Assembly (NCBI GenBank): GCA_016839585.1
Contig: JAEOTZ010000033.1
Location: 1-63,708 of the forward strand
DNA: 63,708 nt
Direction: 5' to 3'
From: Promethearchaeota archaeon
GTDB lineage: Archaea > Asgardarchaeota > Lokiarchaeia > Sigyniarchaeales > SOKP01
Positions within the stretch are counted from its first letter, which is position 1, and the number at the start of each line of letters is the position of its first letter. The position numbers were made by a program, and so were the translations under genes. This document shows positions 49,770 to 59,030 of this stretch, one piece after another. The notes under the pieces are model-generated. The model saw only the letters and a list, made by a program, of their open reading frames with translations, ran no database searches and had not been told where the DNA came from.

Positions 49770-51962
49770 TTGAAAATGATTCACCTAAACAATATTAAAG
49801 TGAGTATTCAAAGAAAAGAAAATCTTGAAGGAAAAAAAGAAAAAGTGCTTAATATTGAATGTAGCACGTGTCCAGAATATTCTAAACAATTTTTGAAAAA
49901 TGAGAAATGTTATTATTGCCTTTTCAATTGTGTAAAAAATAACAAGAATAAAGGATTTGAAAAAATATATATTCAAGCTTTAGACGCCTTAACAGATCAA
50001 AAAACAACGAAATTAATTCTTGAATGTTTTAAAAACATGGAAAAAGCTGAAAAATATTATTCTAAACTATTGAAATTAAGAGAAACCTGTGTTTATAGGG
50101 ACAAGTTTGGGTGTAGAATCTTTGGAGATTTTGAATCTTTCTTTGCTTTAAATGAACAAGATCTTATAGATCCAATATCATTATATTTCAAGACACAACA
50201 AATTATAAAACAAGTTGAAAGTTTTAGTTCTCCAGATCCGGTCTGCTCTGATTGCATTGAAAAAAGTATAGAAATTGTAAATCAATTATTATTAATTTTA
50301 GATTCAGGGTTAATAAGAAAATATAAAACAGTCCAGCAGAAGAGTTCCTTATTTGAGGACCCCTTTTACTTTTATGAGTTTCTGATAACAAAATCTCACT
50401 CAATAAATAAAAGCTATGATAAATCAGTTCTTTCTAAAACAACAATTGGTGAAATGAAAAAGGAAGGATTACTGCAATCATACCAAATTGGTAAGGGTTT
50501 GTTTCAAATTCAAGTATTCGGAATAGCAAACAAGACAGAAAAAATATATTATTATCATTTAATTCATGATTCTGAATCAGAAAAATCCTATTTTGAGAAA
50601 TTGATTGAAAATATCCTTTCTTATATGCAAGTTTTAAGATTTGATGACATAGTTTCGTTGGAAAATTTAATTGAGTTGTATGAGAAAGAAGCCTTACGAA
50701 TTATTGAACTCAATTATAAAATGGCTGACAATAGGAAAAAAAGAGTGGCATTTTACGCCGCCATTACATTTCTTCAATTAAACAAACTTTTCCCGCTTTT
50801 AATTGACAATTATATAGAAGAAATATTTTTAGATTCCCCGGAGAGTAAGATTTACATCGATCATCAAAAACATGGACGCTGTCGTACCAATTTAACTTTA
50901 TCTGGCAAGGACATAAAGCGAATAATTACATTATTACGGTTGTATAGTCAACAGAGATTGGATTATTCAAATCCGACTCTAAAATATGTCATTAAAAACA
51001 AATATTTTTACTGTAGATTTGCCATTGATGTTAAACCTATTAATGTCAATGATTTTTCCTTAGATATTAGGAAATTGAATAAAAACATATTAACAATTCA
51101 AGATTTAATGAAAACAAATACTCTTAATCCTCTAATGACCGCGTTTCTTTACTTCTGTATGATAAGAAGAGTAAACATAACAGTAACAGGAGAGACTGAT
51201 ACTGGCAAGACTACATTAATTAACGCATTTGACATGATTTCCCCTGAATACTTCCGAAAAATTTATGTAGAAAATGTCACCGAATCATTAGAGCAATTAA
51301 TTTTTAATAAACATCAGCTCAAATATCAAGCAGACTCCTTAGATACAAATAATAAGGAGGGATATACAAAAAGCGACCACATAAAAACATTACTTCATCG
51401 CACACCTGATATTATTTATTTAGGTGAGATTCTAACAAAAGAAGAAGCAGAAGCTATGTTTCACTGTTTGGCTGCCGGATTAAAAGGTTTTCAAACTATT
51501 CACTCTCAAAACATTGATTCTTTAATAAATAGGCTGATTCATACATTCAAAATTAATTTTGCTCAATTAGATGATTTGGATCTATTAATCTTAATGACTC
51601 GGGATTTTTATAAAAGAAGGATTGTATCTATTTCAGAAATTGATTTAACAAATTATCATGCCGGTGATTACTATAGGGAGATCTTTCTTTATGAACCTGA
51701 ATCAGAGAAGTGGAATTTACTCAAAAAGCTTTATGAGACTAAGCTAATTACTAAATTAAAGAAGTTTGAGAAATTAAAAGAAGATTCTTTTAACAATTTT
51801 ATGACTTTTTACGAAGAAATCTTTCGGTATCTCTTAAATTGTGAAAAGATTAGGAATGACGAATTAGTTAACTTGTTCAATGAATTGGCACATTTTTCTA
51901 TTATATCTCATTTAGAGGCTCGAAATTTTTGGGAAAAGTGGAAAAAAGAGCATGAATATTGA
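49770..51962 (+). CDS. Type II/IV secretion ATPase (TadA/VirB11/ArlI-like) with a Cys-rich N-terminus
   Basis: IEEIFLD, LDIRK, GETDTGKTT, VENVTE, LLHRTPDIIYLGEI and QTIHS motifs. Confidence 0.92.
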   Translation: MKMIHLNNIKVSIQRKENLEGKKEKVLNIECSTCPEYSKQFLKNEKCYYCLFNCVKNNKNKGFEKIYIQALDALTDQKTTKLILECFKNMEKAEKYYSKLLKLRETCVYRDKFGCRIFGDFESFFALNEQDLIDPISLYFKTQQIIKQVESFSSPDPVCSDCIEKSIEIVNQLLLILDSGLIRKYKTVQQKSSLFEDPFYFYEFLITKSHSINKSYDKSVLSKTTIGEMKKEGLLQSYQIGKGLFQIQVFGIANKTEKIYYYHLIHDSESEKSYFEKLIENILSYMQVLRFDDIVSLENLIELYEKEALRIIELNYKMADNRKKRVAFYAAITFLQLNKLFPLLIDNYIEEIFLDSPESKIYIDHQKHGRCRTNLTLSGKDIKRIITLLRLYSQQRLDYSNPTLKYVIKNKYFYCRFAIDVKPINVNDFSLDIRKLNKNILTIQDLMKTNTLNPLMTAFLYFCMIRRVNITVTGETDTGKTTLINAFDMISPEYFRKIYVENVTESLEQLIFNKHQLKYQADSLDTNNKEGYTKSDHIKTLLHRTPDIIYLGEILTKEEAEAMFHCLAAGLKGFQTIHSQNIDSLINRLIHTFKINFAQLDDLDLLILMTRDFYKRRIVSISEIDLTNYHAGDYYREIFLYEPESEKWNLLKKLYETKLITKLKKFEKLKEDSFNNFMTFYEEIFRYLLNCEKIRNDELVNLFNELAHFSIISHLEARNFWEKWKKEHEY

Positions 51963-52289: not shown

Positions 52290-52319
52290 AATAGTCAGGC
52301 AATATTATCTTAATTATAA

Positions 52320-52561
52320 TGGAAGACCATCAAAATGAATAAAATTATACTCATTTTATTTCAAATAATCATATCAACAATGTTTTGTTGGATTATTTGT
52401 GGCATTAGTCCGAATGCCTTTATCCCATCAACCGAAATGGCATTTGGGAATACTTTTTTCATGATATTATATGCCCCATTTACATCAGCATTGAGTAAAA
52501 TACCTTTGGAGGTTATGAACAAACCTCTAGAAATTCTTTTTCCTGCATATTTTTCATGTTT
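52320..52561 (-). mobile_element. tnpB: IS200/IS605-family remnant: tnpB 3' end (52561-52361) plus right-end hairpin (52332-52357)
   Basis: Manual translation: KHEKYAGKRISRGLFITSKGILLNADVNGAYNIMKKVFPNA...; NADxNGAxNI is the TnpB RuvC-III motif. Confidence 0.85.
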
Positions 52562-52833
52562 TAACCTCTTTTTTTATTTAAATTCCTTTTCTATTGGTGT
52601 CCAAGATATTTGACACACTTACAATAAAAATTATTTTTTTAGTAAAAATCCCTTCTTTCTCTCCATTCTTCTTTCTCTTTTGCTTTTCTTTCTTTCTCTT
52701 CTTTTCTGAAAGAAATACTATGTGCTGTACTATGCCAAATTCGGAATAATAAATAATCGAATATAATTCCAATTATAAAACCTAAAAATATTATCAAAGC
52801 AATATTCATTTTAACATCTCCCGTTTTATTTAT

Positions 52834-53346
52834 TTAAGGTCTATAATATATAGCATCGTAGTAAGTAAATCTGTTTGGTCCGCAATGATTATTACACAGA
52901 AAAATAAACCAATTATCCAAACATGGTGCAGTAAAATTATAATAAAATCCATAATATCGTGGATATGTTATGATATTATATACTTCTTCTAATATTGGAT
53001 CATTCTCATGATCAAAATAAGGATCTTCTACTGCTCTACTAAAGTCTTCAAACATATCACTTGAAACCACATATAGAAATGGATGTTCAAATTGATCGGT
53101 ATCACTAAAATGATTTAAATATACCCAGTTTACTTCCATAGTATAATTTAAAACATAATAATCTTCACTAAAAGTAAGAGTAATCCTATAACTTTCCCAA
53201 TTTTTCATATATGGATCGTATGGTGGTGGTTCTGGTGTTTGCTGATTTTTATCTACAGGTTTTATTAAGATAATTGAATATAATGTCGATGTTACTATTA
53301 AGGACACTACTATTACAATAATTAAAAAAATAAATTTCTTTTTCAA
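52834..53346 (-). CDS. Membrane-anchored or secreted protein (cassette gene)
   Basis: TTG start at 53346 after GAGGT; KKK + TM + Pro-rich linker + beta-rich domain. Confidence 0.75.
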   Translation of the reverse strand: MKKKFIFLIIVIVVSLIVTSTLYSIILIKPVDKNQQTPEPPPYDPYMKNWESYRITLTFSEDYYVLNYTMEVNWVYLNHFSDTDQFEHPFLYVVSSDMFEDFSRAVEDPYFDHENDPILEEVYNIITYPRYYGFYYNFTAPCLDNWFIFLCNNHCGPNRFTYYDAIYYRP

Positions 53347-53435
53347 TTTTTTAACCTCTTTTTTATTTAAATTCATTTCTATTGGTGCTCTCGAAATGAG
53401 GCACACTTACAAATAAAATAAAAAAAAATTAATTA

Positions 53436-53726
53436 TTAAGTTTCTTCTGTTTTTTTCATATATTTTTTTATCCACTTATTTTGGAATTCGATAGTAGCTT
53501 CTTCCAATTTTTTCAACGATTTCAGATCTCTATCTGATGGTATATTTTTACTATATGCAATTCCCATAGCAATTGCCTTATCCTCTAATTTAGGATAGAG
53601 AGTAAGTGCAATTTTCGTTGTTAACATTTTTTCTTCAAGTTTAAGCTTCTTCCAATTAAAATAAATACTCATTAATATTACAATGGCACTACTTACTATT
53701 GATACTATAGCAATCAAATCACTCAT
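53436..53726 (-). CDS. Small single-TM protein (cassette gene)
   Basis: GGAGTGA SD; N-terminal TM followed by a helical tail. Confidence 0.75.
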   Translation of the reverse strand: MSDLIAIVSIVSSAIVILMSIYFNWKKLKLEEKMLTTKIALTLYPKLEDKAIAMGIAYSKNIPSDRDLKSLKKLEEATIEFQNKWIKKYMKKTEET

Positions 53727-53809
53727 CTTCTTTTCTCACTCCTTCATTAATTTCATTTTAATTGGTGCTCTGGAAGTCAGACACACTTACAAAAAAAATA
53801 AATTGATTA

Positions 53810-54115
53810 ATTATTTCTTAAATTCCTGTTTAAAAAGATATTCTTGATCTGAAATATCAATATTAAATCTGTTACCAAGCCATTTAATTATTTATTTTAT
53901 TGTTTTAAATATTTCATATTGCTCATTTGTATATCCCTCTTTACCTTTACATTCTAATTCATTATGATATTCATCCTGTAAAGCAATAACCATCTCTTCT
54001 GCTATAATTTCTTAAAAAAATCAAATCTATGTAAAAAATATTTACTACAAAGAAATAATCGAAATAACTTTATTGTTCCTTCTTGATAAATCCAAAGAAT
54101 AATATCTTTTATCAA
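53810..54115 (-). pseudogene. Frameshifted hypothetical gene upstream of repeat 3
   Basis: Intact 3' part (EIIAEEMVIALQDEYH...QEFKK*); disrupted near a T-run at ~54012-54020. Confidence 0.4.
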
Positions 54116-54204: not shown

Positions 54205-54459
54205 ATGGCAAAAAGCGAAATGATAGAAATAATCCAGGGATCAAAGGAGTTTTTATCTCCTTTACAATATAATATACTTAAAACCTTACGATCCCTTGGG
54301 CCCTTAACACGTAAGGATTTAGTAAAAGAACTGAAAAACCCAAGAACCACAATTTATGACAACCTTATAAAGCTTCAGAAACGTAAAAGAATTGAAAAAT
54401 ACTCACGCAATAATGGGAGAATAGGAAGACCCAGCGTTTTTTGGAAGATGAGAGATTAA
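54205..54459 (+). CDS. TrmB/MarR-like wHTH protein
   Basis: GPLTRKDLVKEL..PRTTIYDNL...GRP...W. Confidence 0.85.
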   Translation: MAKSEMIEIIQGSKEFLSPLQYNILKTLRSLGPLTRKDLVKELKNPRTTIYDNLIKLQKRKRIEKYSRNNGRIGRPSVFWKMRD

Positions 54460-55006: not shown

Positions 55007-55032
55007 GTGAAGAAACAATTATAAAAGCAATT

Positions 55033-55285
55033 TTAATTTGTTATAGAAATTGTTTCAAAATCACTATATTTTTTCAAGACTAATCTCAGAATATCTTCAA
55101 AACATTCTAAAATCCCTTCCCCAGTTATTGCTATTGTATAACGTGAATTTATGTTTTTAAAATCAAGAATCTTAATCTCTTTTAAGAATTGTATGGAATC
55201 TAATTTCTCTGGTAAATCTTGTTTATTAAAAGCAAGAATAATTGGAAGATCTTCAATAGTTTCATTAAAATAAGAAATTAATTCC
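55033..55285 (-). pseudogene. C-terminal fragment of an Arf/Rab-like small GTPase
   Basis: Manual translation: ELISYF...LPIILAFNKQDLP...TIAITGEGILECFE (G4 and G5 present; G1-G3 missing). Confidence 0.8.
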
Positions 55286-58421: not shown

Positions 58422-59030
58422 TCAAAGAAAAATTTTGTGGTTAATTAAATATAATTTTATTTCTTCTTTGAATTTATGATATTTATCAGGAGTTAAATTA
58501 ACCTTTAAATCCAAAAGAATTTCAGGGAGTTCAATAAAAAAACCTATTAATATATCTTTGTAATAATCATCACCGTAAAAATTTTTTGAATGAATTTGTC
58601 TAGAGTGAATTCTATGATATGACTCCTCTTTTTTACCATTTTTAGTATCATAGGTTAATGATGCTGGTGAACCAAATTTTTTCTCGGGATTCTTAAGATT
58701 TGAGATATTTTTATTTTTTTTCAGATTAAATTTTAAAATTTCTCTGAGAGTTTGGTTTTTAATTATTTTTCCTTGTTTTGTTATTGAAATAACTTGAGGT
58801 CGTTTATGCGATTTCATTATTTAATTTAAACTTTTTAATTTCTTTAAGGCAAGGGATACTTGGCTTTTACTCCTATTTAAATATGAGGTAAGTTCTTCAA
58901 AACTTGTATTTCCATTATTATGGTTTAAAAATAACAGAATTTTTAGACTCATCATAGAGATTGTCTTATTGCTGTTATCTTGCAGCTTAACTTCTTGGAT
59001 AACACTCAAAACATTGTCCCACCTTATCAT
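58422..59030 (-). pseudogene. MarR-like wHTH gene split by an in-frame TAA (58821-58823)
   Basis: ...SKSQVSLALKKLKSLN*IMKSHKRPQVISITKQGK: both listed ORFs share a frame and together form one wHTH. Confidence 0.7.

What the first reader, a model, noticed from the sequence alone, without database searches (positions are those of the whole stretch)
52593..53792. Array of small gene cassettes delimited by covarying 32-bp hairpin sites (integron-like, but not attC)
Seen: three sites of exactly 32 bp (ATTGGTG-N14-CACACTTACAA). Each folds as a GTG..CAC stem with one extrahelical base and compensatory changes (CAA/TTG, CTC/GAG, CTG/CAG) around a GAnnT loop. On the minus strand each site follows a T-rich tract downstream of the previous gene and precedes a leader with an SD; the leader GAATTTAAATAAAAAA(A)GAGGTTAAAA is shared by two copies. 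The genes between the sites are unrelated small membrane-anchored proteins. Known: integron attC and REP/IS605 ends are recognised as ssDNA hairpins with extrahelical bases, but these sites lack the attC RYYYAAC/GTTRRRY cores. Inference: a gene capture/shuffling array with an unknown recombinase, or RNA-processing signals.
Basis: partly seen in the sequence, partly recalled or inferred. Interest (0 to 1): 0.74.

Follow-up and report, generated by a model that had tools for sequence, protein, structure and literature searches.

The report
Hairpin spacer cassettes of Asgard mobile DNA
The three 32-base hairpin sites are real and belong to a family of about 90 conserved gene-heading spacers on a 112-kb mobile element and related DNA of Loki-type Asgard archaea; they most likely act as expression signals and also as the seams at which small accessory genes get swapped, much like the promoter/stem-loop cassettes of T4-type phages.

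Summary
Observation confirmed. TTGTAAGTGTG-N14-CACCAAT (minus strand) occurs three times in the window and nowhere else in the 3.45-Mb genome. The same element occurs 1-3 times in eight other genomes of the same archaeal family, and it gave 71 model matches on 56 marine-sediment contigs. It also occurs 8 times, plus one weak match, all on one strand, on a 112-kb terminal-repeat element (G400) that IMG/VR classes as viral.

Across 65 distinct copies the inner four stem pairs covary (97% paired, 0 of 500 shuffles as good). Wobble pairs favour the gene-sense strand.

The site is the core of a stereotyped spacer: stop codon, T-run, hairpin, A-rich leader, Shine-Dalgarno sequence, start codon. Homology between contigs often breaks at these spacers and gene order differs on either side. 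The break point is not fixed, there are no attC cores, and no recombinase is consistently adjacent.

In the window the array is a ~1.85-kb insertion that the two closest relatives lack. It ends in a truncated TnpB insertion sequence.

Best reading (0.55): a composite regulatory cassette of a Lokiarchaeial mobile element that doubles as a homology patch for modular shuffling, like PeSLs. A dedicated integron-like recombination site is not excluded (~0.12). No RNA-end data could be obtained.

The parts
53761..53792 (-). Hairpin site A (TTGTAAGTGTG-TCTGACTTCCAGAG-CACCAAT)
   Evidence: Exact pattern match. Covariance model score 69.2 bits. Sense-strand RNA fold -12.3 kcal/mol, z -2.8.
53381..53412 (-). 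Hairpin site B (stem CCTC/GAG(A)G)
   Evidence: 70.7 bits; -13.3 kcal/mol, z -3.4. An identical stem occurs in the 94%-identical metagenome relative L142.
52593..52624 (-). Hairpin site C (stem TCAA/TTGG with a U.G pair)
   Evidence: (64.6 bits). Its stem differs at 9 of 14 positions from the L142 copy although the DNA upstream is about 94% identical.
53727..53804 (-). Spacer module A: T-run, site A, leader with GGAG, up to the ATG of the 96-aa gene
   Evidence: Sequence read directly and alignment.
53347..53432 (-). Spacer module B: T-run, site B, leader AGAAATGAATTTAAATAAAAAAGAGGTTAAAAAA, up to the TTG start
   Evidence: It matches the family consensus.
52558..52635 (-). Spacer module C: T-run, site C and leader, truncated at the junction with the IS fragment
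53436..53726 (-). Cassette gene, 96 aa, N-terminal membrane helix, no known family
52834..53346 (-). Cassette gene, 170 aa (TTG start), N-terminal membrane helix. No homologue in 134 genomes of the family; 4 metagenome homologues.
52639..52809 (-). Small gene, 56 aa, membrane helix. It follows the 170-aa gene without a hairpin site; the pair is kept together in L142.
53811..53993 (-). Decayed small ORF upstream of site A, with an in-frame TAA at 53892-53894
   Evidence: Sequence read directly.
52318..52562 (-). 3' end (last ~59 codons plus right end) of a TnpB-only insertion sequence, fused to the leader of module C
   Evidence: It is 82-93% identical to many copies in genomes of the same genus. 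Full copies are about 1.4 kb.
52325..54113 (.). The whole ~1.8-kb insertion (array plus IS fragment), absent from the two closest relatives
   Evidence: In G279 and G284 the pilus-locus end joins the wHTH gene region within 241 bp and 57 bp respectively.

Best explanation
Each site is the core of a conserved intergenic cassette of about 50-90 bp, carried by a mobile element (virus or large plasmid) of Lokiarchaeia-type Asgard archaea.

Layout. In gene-sense order the cassette reads: stop codon of the previous gene, about 15 nt, a T-run (an archaeal terminator signal), the hairpin, an A-rich leader, a Shine-Dalgarno sequence, and a start codon about 31-35 nt after the site.

Proposed expression role (inferred). 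The hairpin forms in the gene-sense strand, most likely in RNA. There it would serve the downstream and/or upstream gene as a stabilising, processing or protein-binding stem-loop, within a terminator/leader unit.

Proposed shuffling role. All copies share the same flanks, so the cassettes also act as portable patches of homology. Recombination between them swaps, inserts and deletes the small, mostly orphan accessory genes they head. This is the same logic as the PeSL promoter/stem-loop cassettes of T4-type phages.

The window. Its three-site array is a truncated, chromosome-borne piece of such an array, acquired as a ~1.85-kb insertion and cut short by a TnpB insertion sequence.

Shown: family membership, covariation, fixed architecture, presence on a mobile element, variable gene order with homology breaks at the cassettes, and insertion status.
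Inferred: transcription of the hairpin, its molecular role, and homologous rather than site-specific recombination.
For: 1. Structure. Eight hand-aligned copies gave 4 of 4 variable pairs with double changes, 97.5% paired, 0 of 500 shuffles as good. Sixty-five distinct metagenome copies gave 81 doubly changed cells, 97.2% paired, 0 of 500, and slid controls at 31-46% paired. G.U/U.G cells outnumber A.C/C.A cells 22 to 9 on the gene-sense strand, and sense-strand folds are more stable than antisense folds. All four changes at site position 32 are matched at position -1.

2. Expression-signal layout. Conservation runs from -9 to +9 around the site (T-run, then AAAAATAAA). Fifty-three sites have a same-strand stop codon within 60 nt upstream, median about 15 nt. 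Fifty-one have a same-strand start within 60 nt downstream, mode 31-35 nt, with GAGG-type motifs before it.

3. Mobile-element origin. G400 (IMG/VR, 111,837 bp, 144-bp terminal repeats, 183 of 196 ORFs on one strand; PolB, RFC, FEN1, ThyX, topoisomerase, integrase) carries 8 good sites plus one weak match, all on the gene strand. In host genomes the element is sporadic: 1-3 copies in 9 genomes of one family. The covariance model found none in the 150 other genomes sampled across the phylum, and the pattern search of 400 found no convincing site outside that family. The window array is missing from the closest relatives G279 and G284.

4. Shuffling. The same upstream gene is followed by different genes across a site (F5-S-F2, F5-S-F1, F5-S-F42; F2-S-F10, F2-S-F4, F2-S-F1), and there are cassette-sized indels between L119 and G400. 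Twenty-one site pairs have homology on only one side, against 9 with homology on both. L142 shares exactly [site B - 170 aa - 56 aa - 5' part of site C] at 94% identity, with unrelated flanks on both sides.

5. Break points vary. Some fall at the T-run or 5' flank and others after the leader at the ATG. This is as reported for PeSLs (PMC2839356; PMC4122927).

6. Interchangeable spacers. The same gene family (F4) is headed by the hairpin cassette on some contigs and by a different conserved spacer on others.
Against: The T-run directly upstream should terminate archaeal transcription. No well-placed TATA box can be assigned: the TTTAAATA in the leader is too close to the start codon, and the A/T-rich stretch upstream has no fixed motif.

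The invariant flanks (TTGTAAGTGTG, CACCAAT, bulged A, AUUUC-type loop) point to a specific binding partner, which was not identified.

The hairpin core itself is present or absent in an otherwise homologous spacer (L119 versus G400). Either a small mobile unit or precise deletion could explain this.

G400 has no recognisable capsid, terminase or portal gene, so 'virus' rests on IMG/VR's classification.

Copies are related by descent, so shuffle statistics overstate independence.
Confidence: 0.55

Rival explanations
1. Dedicated site-specific recombination site. The hairpin folds in single-stranded DNA and is cut and rejoined by an unidentified recombinase, so the array is a true integron-like gene-capture platform.
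For: The hairpin is strand-specific and covarying, has an unpaired base and has invariant flanks, as in attC or IS608 ends. The arrays are co-oriented with variable content. Homology breaks at the sites. Tyrosine integrases occur on some site-bearing elements (L096, L122, G400).
Against: No recombinase gene lies in or next to the window array. Integrases elsewhere are 2-6 kb away and account for only 4 of 147 neighbouring ORFs. Break points are not fixed relative to the site. There are no attC cores and no Y1/HUH transposase in the 99%-complete host genome or on G400. The window insertion is not bounded by sites, and the relatives have no empty site. The fixed spacing to the Shine-Dalgarno sequence and start codon, and the conserved leader, are not expected of a pure recombination site.
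Confidence: 0.12
2. Intercistronic RNA-processing or stability signal only. Arrays are transcribed as long polycistronic RNAs, a host or element nuclease cuts next to the hairpin, and the gene shuffling is incidental.
For: Nearly all genes of G400 lie on one strand. The wobble bias favours the sense strand. The possible outer helix uses the U-run and the A-run, so it needs an RNA spanning both. T7 RNase III sites are a precedent (my own knowledge).
Against: A run of 5-9 T directly upstream should stop archaeal RNA polymerase before the hairpin is made. No nuclease partner is known. No Rfam family matches. This reading overlaps with the best explanation and differs mainly in denying a role in recombination, which the breakpoint data argue for.
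Confidence: 0.15
3. Miniature mobile hairpin. The ~32-38-nt core is itself a tiny insertion element (REP/MITE-like) that lands between a terminator T-run and the next leader.
For: The hairpin core is precisely present or absent in an otherwise homologous F19-F22 spacer. 'Empty' T-run/A-run spacers exist on G400. The flanks TTTTA / AAAAA are constant.
Against: Copy number is very low (3 in the host genome, 8 on G400). No Y1 transposase or RAYT is present. Stems differ between copies in one genome, unlike REP families. A palindrome can equally be lost by slippage. Only one such polymorphism was seen.
Confidence: 0.08
4. DNA-level operator or hairpin promoter. The site is bound as DNA by a transcription factor (for example the neighbouring wHTH protein), or is recognised as an extruded hairpin by an element-encoded polymerase, as in phage N4.
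For: The flanks are invariant around a variable centre. A TrmB-like wHTH gene lies next to the array, and it is 53% identical to the N-terminus of a G400 protein beside the integrase. If the T-run is the TATA box, the start site would fall inside the hairpin (geometry, inference).
Against: A protein that reads duplex DNA does not explain compensatory stem changes or the G.U strand bias. The wHTH gene is present in relatives that lack any site. No RNA polymerase gene was detected among the G400 ORFs scanned.
Confidence: 0.07

Closest known systems
PeSL (promoter-early stem-loop) cassettes of T4-type phages (Arbiol et al. 2010, PMC2839356; Comeau et al. 2014, PMC4122927)
   Same: Both are short conserved composite intergenic units that contain a stem-loop plus expression signals. 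Both are repeated in one orientation in front of small orphan genes in variable regions of a large mobile genome. In both, homology between related genomes breaks at the units and the crossover point varies within the unit. Both lead to insertion, deletion or replacement of single genes.
   Different: There is no sequence relation, and the host is an archaeon. The terminator signal here is a T-run placed before the hairpin, whereas a PeSL stem-loop is itself a bacterial-type terminator placed before a sigma-70 promoter. Here the hairpin has invariant flanks, a bulged A and a covarying inner stem, which suggests a specific binding partner. Promoter and terminator activity and mini-circles have been shown experimentally for PeSLs. 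None of these is shown here.
Integron attC sites and cassette arrays, including archaeal integrons (Ghaly et al. 2022, PMC9668308) and CALINs
   Same: Both are co-oriented arrays of small, unrelated, often orphan genes separated by imperfect hairpins that fold in one strand and carry an unpaired base. Stem sequence varies while the structure is kept.
   Different: The sites are 32 nt, against 57-141 nt for attC. They lack the R''/R' cores and have no IntI or attI. The site sits at a fixed distance upstream of the next start codon together with a conserved leader. The crossover point is not fixed.
Putative mobile promoters / promoter reuse (Nijveen et al. 2012, PMC3575422)
   Same: Near-identical upstream regulatory stretches are found in front of unrelated genes and are shared between genomes.
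   Different: Those were defined by similarity only, in bacteria, with no structured covarying core and no array organisation.
REP elements / IS200-IS605 subterminal hairpins (Y1 HUH transposases)
   Same: Both are short intergenic imperfect palindromes with conserved flanking nucleotides that are read in one strand. A TnpB insertion-sequence fragment lies next to site C.
   Different: No Y1 transposase is present in the host genome or on G400. Copy number is very low. The neighbouring IS is a TnpB-only element whose ends are unrelated to the site.

Membership tests
Integron (attC cassette array) | IntI-type tyrosine recombinase with attI and Pc at the head of the array | tested here: not met
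   No recombinase lies among the ORFs in or around the window array. Integrases on L096, L122 and G400 are generic and sit 2-6 kb from the sites.
Integron (attC cassette array) | attC with R''(RYYYAAC) and R'(GTTRRRY) cores, 57-141 nt | tested here: not met
   Neither core occurs on either strand of 52550-53860. The site is 32 nt.
Integron (attC cassette array) | Single fixed crossover point within the site | tested here: not met
   Homology breaks at the T-run or 5' flank in some pairs and after the leader at the ATG in others.
Integron (attC cassette array) | Strand-specific folded hairpin with extrahelical base(s) | tested here: met
   Covariation is strong and G.U pairs are biased to one strand. 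The unpaired base is mostly A.
PeSL-type composite regulatory cassettes | Conserved intergenic unit with a stem-loop, repeated in front of orphan genes in variable regions of a phage or mobile genome | tested here: met
   The cassette proteins have no Pfam family, and the 170-aa protein has no homologue in 134 genomes of the family.
PeSL-type composite regulatory cassettes | Breaks of homology and gene indels between related genomes fall at the units | tested here: met
PeSL-type composite regulatory cassettes | The unit has promoter and terminator activity | not testable with these tools
   A T-run and an SD-bearing leader are present.
PeSL-type composite regulatory cassettes | Recombination between units yields excised mini-circles | not testable with these tools
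   No reads could be examined.
REP/RAYT or IS200/IS605 hairpin ends | Cognate Y1 HUH transposase in the genome | tested here: not met
   PF01797 gave no match in G000 (99% complete) or in G400, while the controls gave matches.
REP/RAYT or IS200/IS605 hairpin ends | Many near-identical copies per genome | tested here: not met
   There are three copies in G000, and their stems differ.
CRISPR repeat / solitary repeat unit | Matches a regularly spaced repeat array of the host | tested here: not met
   No array of the motif was found in 400 genomes of the phylum. No CRISPR-like array is present in the G000 assembly.
Any Rfam RNA family | Score at or above the family's gathering threshold | tested here: not met
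   There were no matches in the window at gathering thresholds and no relevant match at E up to 10.

The most novel reading that the evidence does not exclude
The hairpin is the recombination site of an undescribed gene-cassette system of Asgard mobile elements that acts on single-stranded DNA. A recombinase not yet recognised (or a host enzyme) would cut at the conserved flanks, so that hairpin-headed orphan genes are captured, excised and exchanged between elements and host chromosomes. This would be functionally an integron built from unrelated parts. The precise presence or absence of the bare hairpin and the four compensated changes at the helix base are compatible with it.
Probability: 0.12. 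Interest if true: 0.85.

Novelty: new variant of a known kind. Interest (0 to 1): 0.56.

Why it matters
Very little is known about how the genomes of Asgard archaea, and of their viruses and plasmids, acquire and reshuffle accessory genes, or about what their gene-expression signals look like.

This element is a compact, easily searched marker with a 32-nt core and about 90 instances. It tags a family of Lokiarchaeial mobile elements, including a complete 112-kb one, and their fragments in host chromosomes. It marks the exact seams at which small membrane and surface genes are exchanged.

If the PeSL-like reading holds, modular shuffling through conserved regulatory cassettes has arisen independently in an archaeal mobile element. 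The motif also offers a defined candidate RNA-protein (or DNA-protein) recognition pair to look for in the few cultured Loki-type archaea.

Tried and rejected
- **Rfam:** no family matches.
- **tRNA or tmRNA:** none in the window.
- **CRISPR repeat or solitary repeat:** no arrays of the motif were found, and the periodic repeats in G000 are LRR-type coding repeats.
- **K-turn, bulge-helix-bulge splice motif, 5' splice-site or group II resemblance (GUAAGU / GUGYG):** considered from the sequence alone and dropped. The non-bulged strand lacks the G.A pairs, the bulges are 5 nt and 1 nt rather than 3 and 3, and variants GTTAGT and GGAAGT occur.
- **TTTAAATA in the leader as TATA box:** rejected. 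It lies only about 14 nt from the start codon.
- **Genome-wide promoter profile from crude gene calls:** uninformative. Upstream regions of tRNA genes gave only a loose TTTTAATTA motif.
- **Link between the site and the neighbouring TnpB IS ends:** none. The IS ends are unrelated, and the IS is merely fused to the leader of module C.
- **Strict-pattern hits in bacteria and in five IMG/VR contigs:** these lie in GC-richer, coding-looking sequence without the stem and are chance matches.
- **Stem-loop consistently inherited with the downstream (or upstream) gene:** not borne out.
- **Capsid, terminase and portal families on G400:** no match.
Full report
**1. The observation**

Chance expectation is 0.01. 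With up to two mismatches, looser regular expressions and a covariance model, these remain the only copies in the 3.45-Mb, 29% GC, 99%-complete assembly.

Read on the minus (gene-sense) strand, each site is TTGTAAGTGTG-N14-CACCAAT. The N14 forms a 3-4-bp inner stem with a 5-nt loop and one unpaired base, stacked on GUG/CAC. The three stems differ by compensatory changes.

The repeat is larger than the site. Copies B and C are 82% identical over 83 bp, and A and B over 71 bp. As RNA, the sense strand folds better than the antisense strand: -12.3, -13.3 and -9.5 against -9.9, -8.9 and -6.3 kcal/mol.

The three genes between the sites encode 96, 170 and 56 aa. They have no Pfam family and each has an N-terminal hydrophobic helix. 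The 'gene' after site C is an artefact. The leader of module C is fused at 52562 to the last 245 bp of a TnpB-only insertion sequence, whose full copies (~1.4 kb) are common in the genus.

**2. The family**

An exact-pattern scan of one genome per prokaryotic species found the site in three Promethearchaeota MAGs and one 'uncultured archaeon'. In each it lies in an intergenic region and has a different, complementary stem. The bacterial hits were in coding sequence without a stem.

A two-mismatch scan of 400 genomes of the phylum, followed by a covariance-model search of fetched loci, found convincing sites only in the window's own family. These are G000 (3), G251 (1), G256 (1), G267 (3), G281 (2), G300 (1), G309 (1), G319 (2) and a decayed copy in G268.

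A metagenome scan with a degenerate pattern returned 56 marine-sediment contigs. The model finds 71 sites on them, and many contigs carry two or three co-oriented sites 290-1200 bp apart.

One IMG/VR contig (G400) is a complete-looking element. It is 111,837 bp with 144-bp direct terminal repeats and 25% GC. Of its 196 ORFs, 183 lie on one strand. It encodes PolB, a clamp loader, FEN1, ThyX, a helicase, a topoisomerase, DNA methylases, a DNA-modification enzyme and an integrase. It carries eight good sites plus one weak match, all on the gene strand, two groups being clusters of three. No HK97 capsid, terminase or portal family was detected. I therefore call it a mobile element that IMG/VR classes as viral.

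**3. Structure**

On eight hand-aligned copies, all four variable pairs show double changes. 97.5% of cells are paired and no shuffle of 500 reaches the observed covariation. Slid controls pair at 36-49%.

On 65 distinct metagenome copies, aligned to the model and so somewhat biased towards it, 81 cells carry double changes, 97.2% are paired, and 0 of 500 shuffles match.

The outer TTG/CAA helix never varies, so it gives no evidence on its own. However, the pair just outside it (position -1 with site position 32) reads A-T in 64 copies, T-A in 3 and G-C in 1, and all four changes of position 32 are compensated. G.U/U.G cells outnumber A.C/C.A cells 22 to 9 on the gene-sense strand. So the fold belongs to the sense strand, as RNA or as single-stranded DNA.

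No Rfam family matches. I found no paper that holds the motif in a relevant context.

**4. Architecture**

Across 81-82 distinct copies, conservation runs from about -9 to +9 around the site: T-run TTTTTTTTA, the site, then AAAAATAAA. A/T-rich sequence without a fixed motif lies further upstream, and an A-rich leader with a GAGG-type motif lies downstream.

In 53 cases a same-strand gene stops within 60 nt upstream, median about 15 nt. In 51 cases a same-strand gene starts within 60 nt downstream, most often 31-35 nt after the site. The site therefore sits in a compact 'stop, T-run, hairpin, leader, SD, start' spacer.

The TTTAAATA that many leaders contain is too close to the start codon (~14 nt) to be its TATA box. 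A TATA box would have to be the T-run or the A/T-rich stretch overlapping the upstream stop codon. That puts the start site either at the base of the hairpin or inside it. This cannot be settled without RNA ends.

G400 also uses other, different conserved spacers: AAATAGTCTTTAAATAATTA and TATAAACAAGGTTTATA. One gene family (F4) is headed by the hairpin spacer on three contigs and by the second type on G400 and L122. In one otherwise homologous spacer the bare hairpin core is present in L119 and absent in G400.

**5. Shuffling**

Gene order differs across sites. The same upstream gene (F5) is followed across a site by F2, F1 or F42, and F2 is followed by F10, F4 or F1. G400 has two extra hairpin-headed units between F21 and F19 relative to L119.

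Of the site pairs from different contigs that share high similarity on at least one side, 21 share it on one side only and 9 on both.

The best case involves the window itself. Contig L142 shares window 53418-52570 at 94% identity, which is exactly site B, the 170-aa gene, the 56-aa gene and the 5' part of site C. The sequence on both sides is unrelated, and the site C stem differs at 9 of 14 positions. More distant homologues of the 170-aa protein have no site.

The break point is not fixed. It falls in the T-run or 5' flank in some pairs and after the leader at the start codon in others. The stem-loop does not consistently travel with either neighbour.

**6. Context in the window**

The two closest relatives, G279 and G284, have 75-83% nucleotide identity in the flanking pilus-ATPase locus. 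In them the end of that locus joins the upstream region of the wHTH gene within 241 bp and 57 bp. The window has about 1.8 kb there. The array plus IS fragment is thus an insertion, or a deletion shared by both relatives. Its ends are not at hairpin sites, and the relatives show no empty site.

No recombinase gene lies in or next to the array. Pfam Y1_Tnp finds nothing in the host genome or in G400.

On other contigs tyrosine integrases occur in 4 of 147 neighbouring ORFs. The three located (on L096, L122 and G400) sit 2-6 kb from the sites, at the head of strings of small genes as on any integrative element. Other neighbours are surface proteins (NosD beta-helix, Ig-like, CBM96, transglutaminase-like), RmuC, topoisomerase, a GHKL ATPase, a large deaminase protein and methylases.

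**7. Interpretation**

The data fit a composite regulatory cassette of a Lokiarchaeial mobile element. Its conserved sequence also serves as a patch of homology for modular shuffling of small accessory genes.

The closest described thing is the PeSL of T4-type phages. A PeSL is a ~70-bp stem-loop plus early promoter that flanks orphan genes in hyperplastic regions. Recombination between PeSLs causes indels and mini-circles, and the crossover points differ between phages (PMC2839356; PMC4122927).

The differences are the archaeal host, a T-run terminator placed before rather than within the stem-loop, and a hairpin with invariant flanks, a bulged A and a covarying inner stem. That last feature argues for a specific binding partner.

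The integron reading fails its defining tests: IntI, attC cores and a fixed crossover. It shares only the folded, strand-specific hairpin. I keep it as the most novel reading not excluded, at about 0.12.

What the hairpin does at the molecular level remains inferred. It could be a 5' stabiliser, a 3' stabiliser or processing site, a protein operator or an attenuator.

**8. Limits**

- No RNA or read-level data could be obtained.
- Copies are related by descent, so shuffle statistics are not probabilities.
- ORF calls on metagenome contigs are crude.
- The covariance-model scan of relatives scores only the best candidates per genome.
- Calling G400 viral rests on IMG/VR.

Noticed in passing
window 52318-52562 (-): The 3' 245 bp (last ~59 codons plus right end) of a TnpB-only insertion sequence of about 1.4 kb. 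The IS is present in many copies at 82-93% identity across genomes of the genus. Here it is truncated and fused to the leader of hairpin module C, and its right end abuts the end of the pilus locus.
   Followed up: partly
window 55029-55285 (-): This stretch gave many 72-85% DNA matches in every genome of the genus. On the minus strand it reads as the C-terminal half of a Ras/Arf-like small GTPase (NKQD motif) with no N-terminal half. It is probably a gene fragment, and the matches are paralogues rather than a mobile repeat.
   Followed up: partly
window 54205-54459 (+) and G400 66223-67413 (L133:224-1414): The 84-aa TrmB/MarR-like wHTH protein beside the array is 53% identical over 68 aa to the N-terminus of a 396-aa protein that sits directly upstream of the integrase on the 112-kb element G400. 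The same wHTH gene is also present in relatives that lack any hairpin site.
   Followed up: partly
G400 (IMGVR_UViG_3300028610_002494), e.g. 58424-58516, 65446-65556, 79601-79723, 100051-100165: The 112-kb element has at least two further conserved spacer types: AAATAGTCTTTAAATAATTA (TATA-like, at variable distance from the start codon) and the palindromic CCTTGTTTATATAAACCTTGTTTATA. They look like other promoter or terminator classes of the same element.
   Followed up: no
window 49770-51962 (+) and G000:C15:14995-15814: The T2SSE/FlaI-type ATPase locus in the window is a second, rarer copy. Only G279 and G284 have it at 80-83% identity. Most genus members, and G000 itself on contig C15, carry a ~70%-identical paralogous locus.
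   Followed up: no
L082:2832-8096 (-): A 1754-aa protein with a cytidine/AID-APOBEC-like deaminase domain lies upstream of a hairpin site on a sediment contig.
   Followed up: no
G000 contigs C2:19-7643, C31:16804-17331, C59:25289-26271: Long runs of ~72-nt periodic repeats turned up in a CRISPR-style scan. They look like coding LRR-type repeats, not CRISPR arrays.
   Followed up: no
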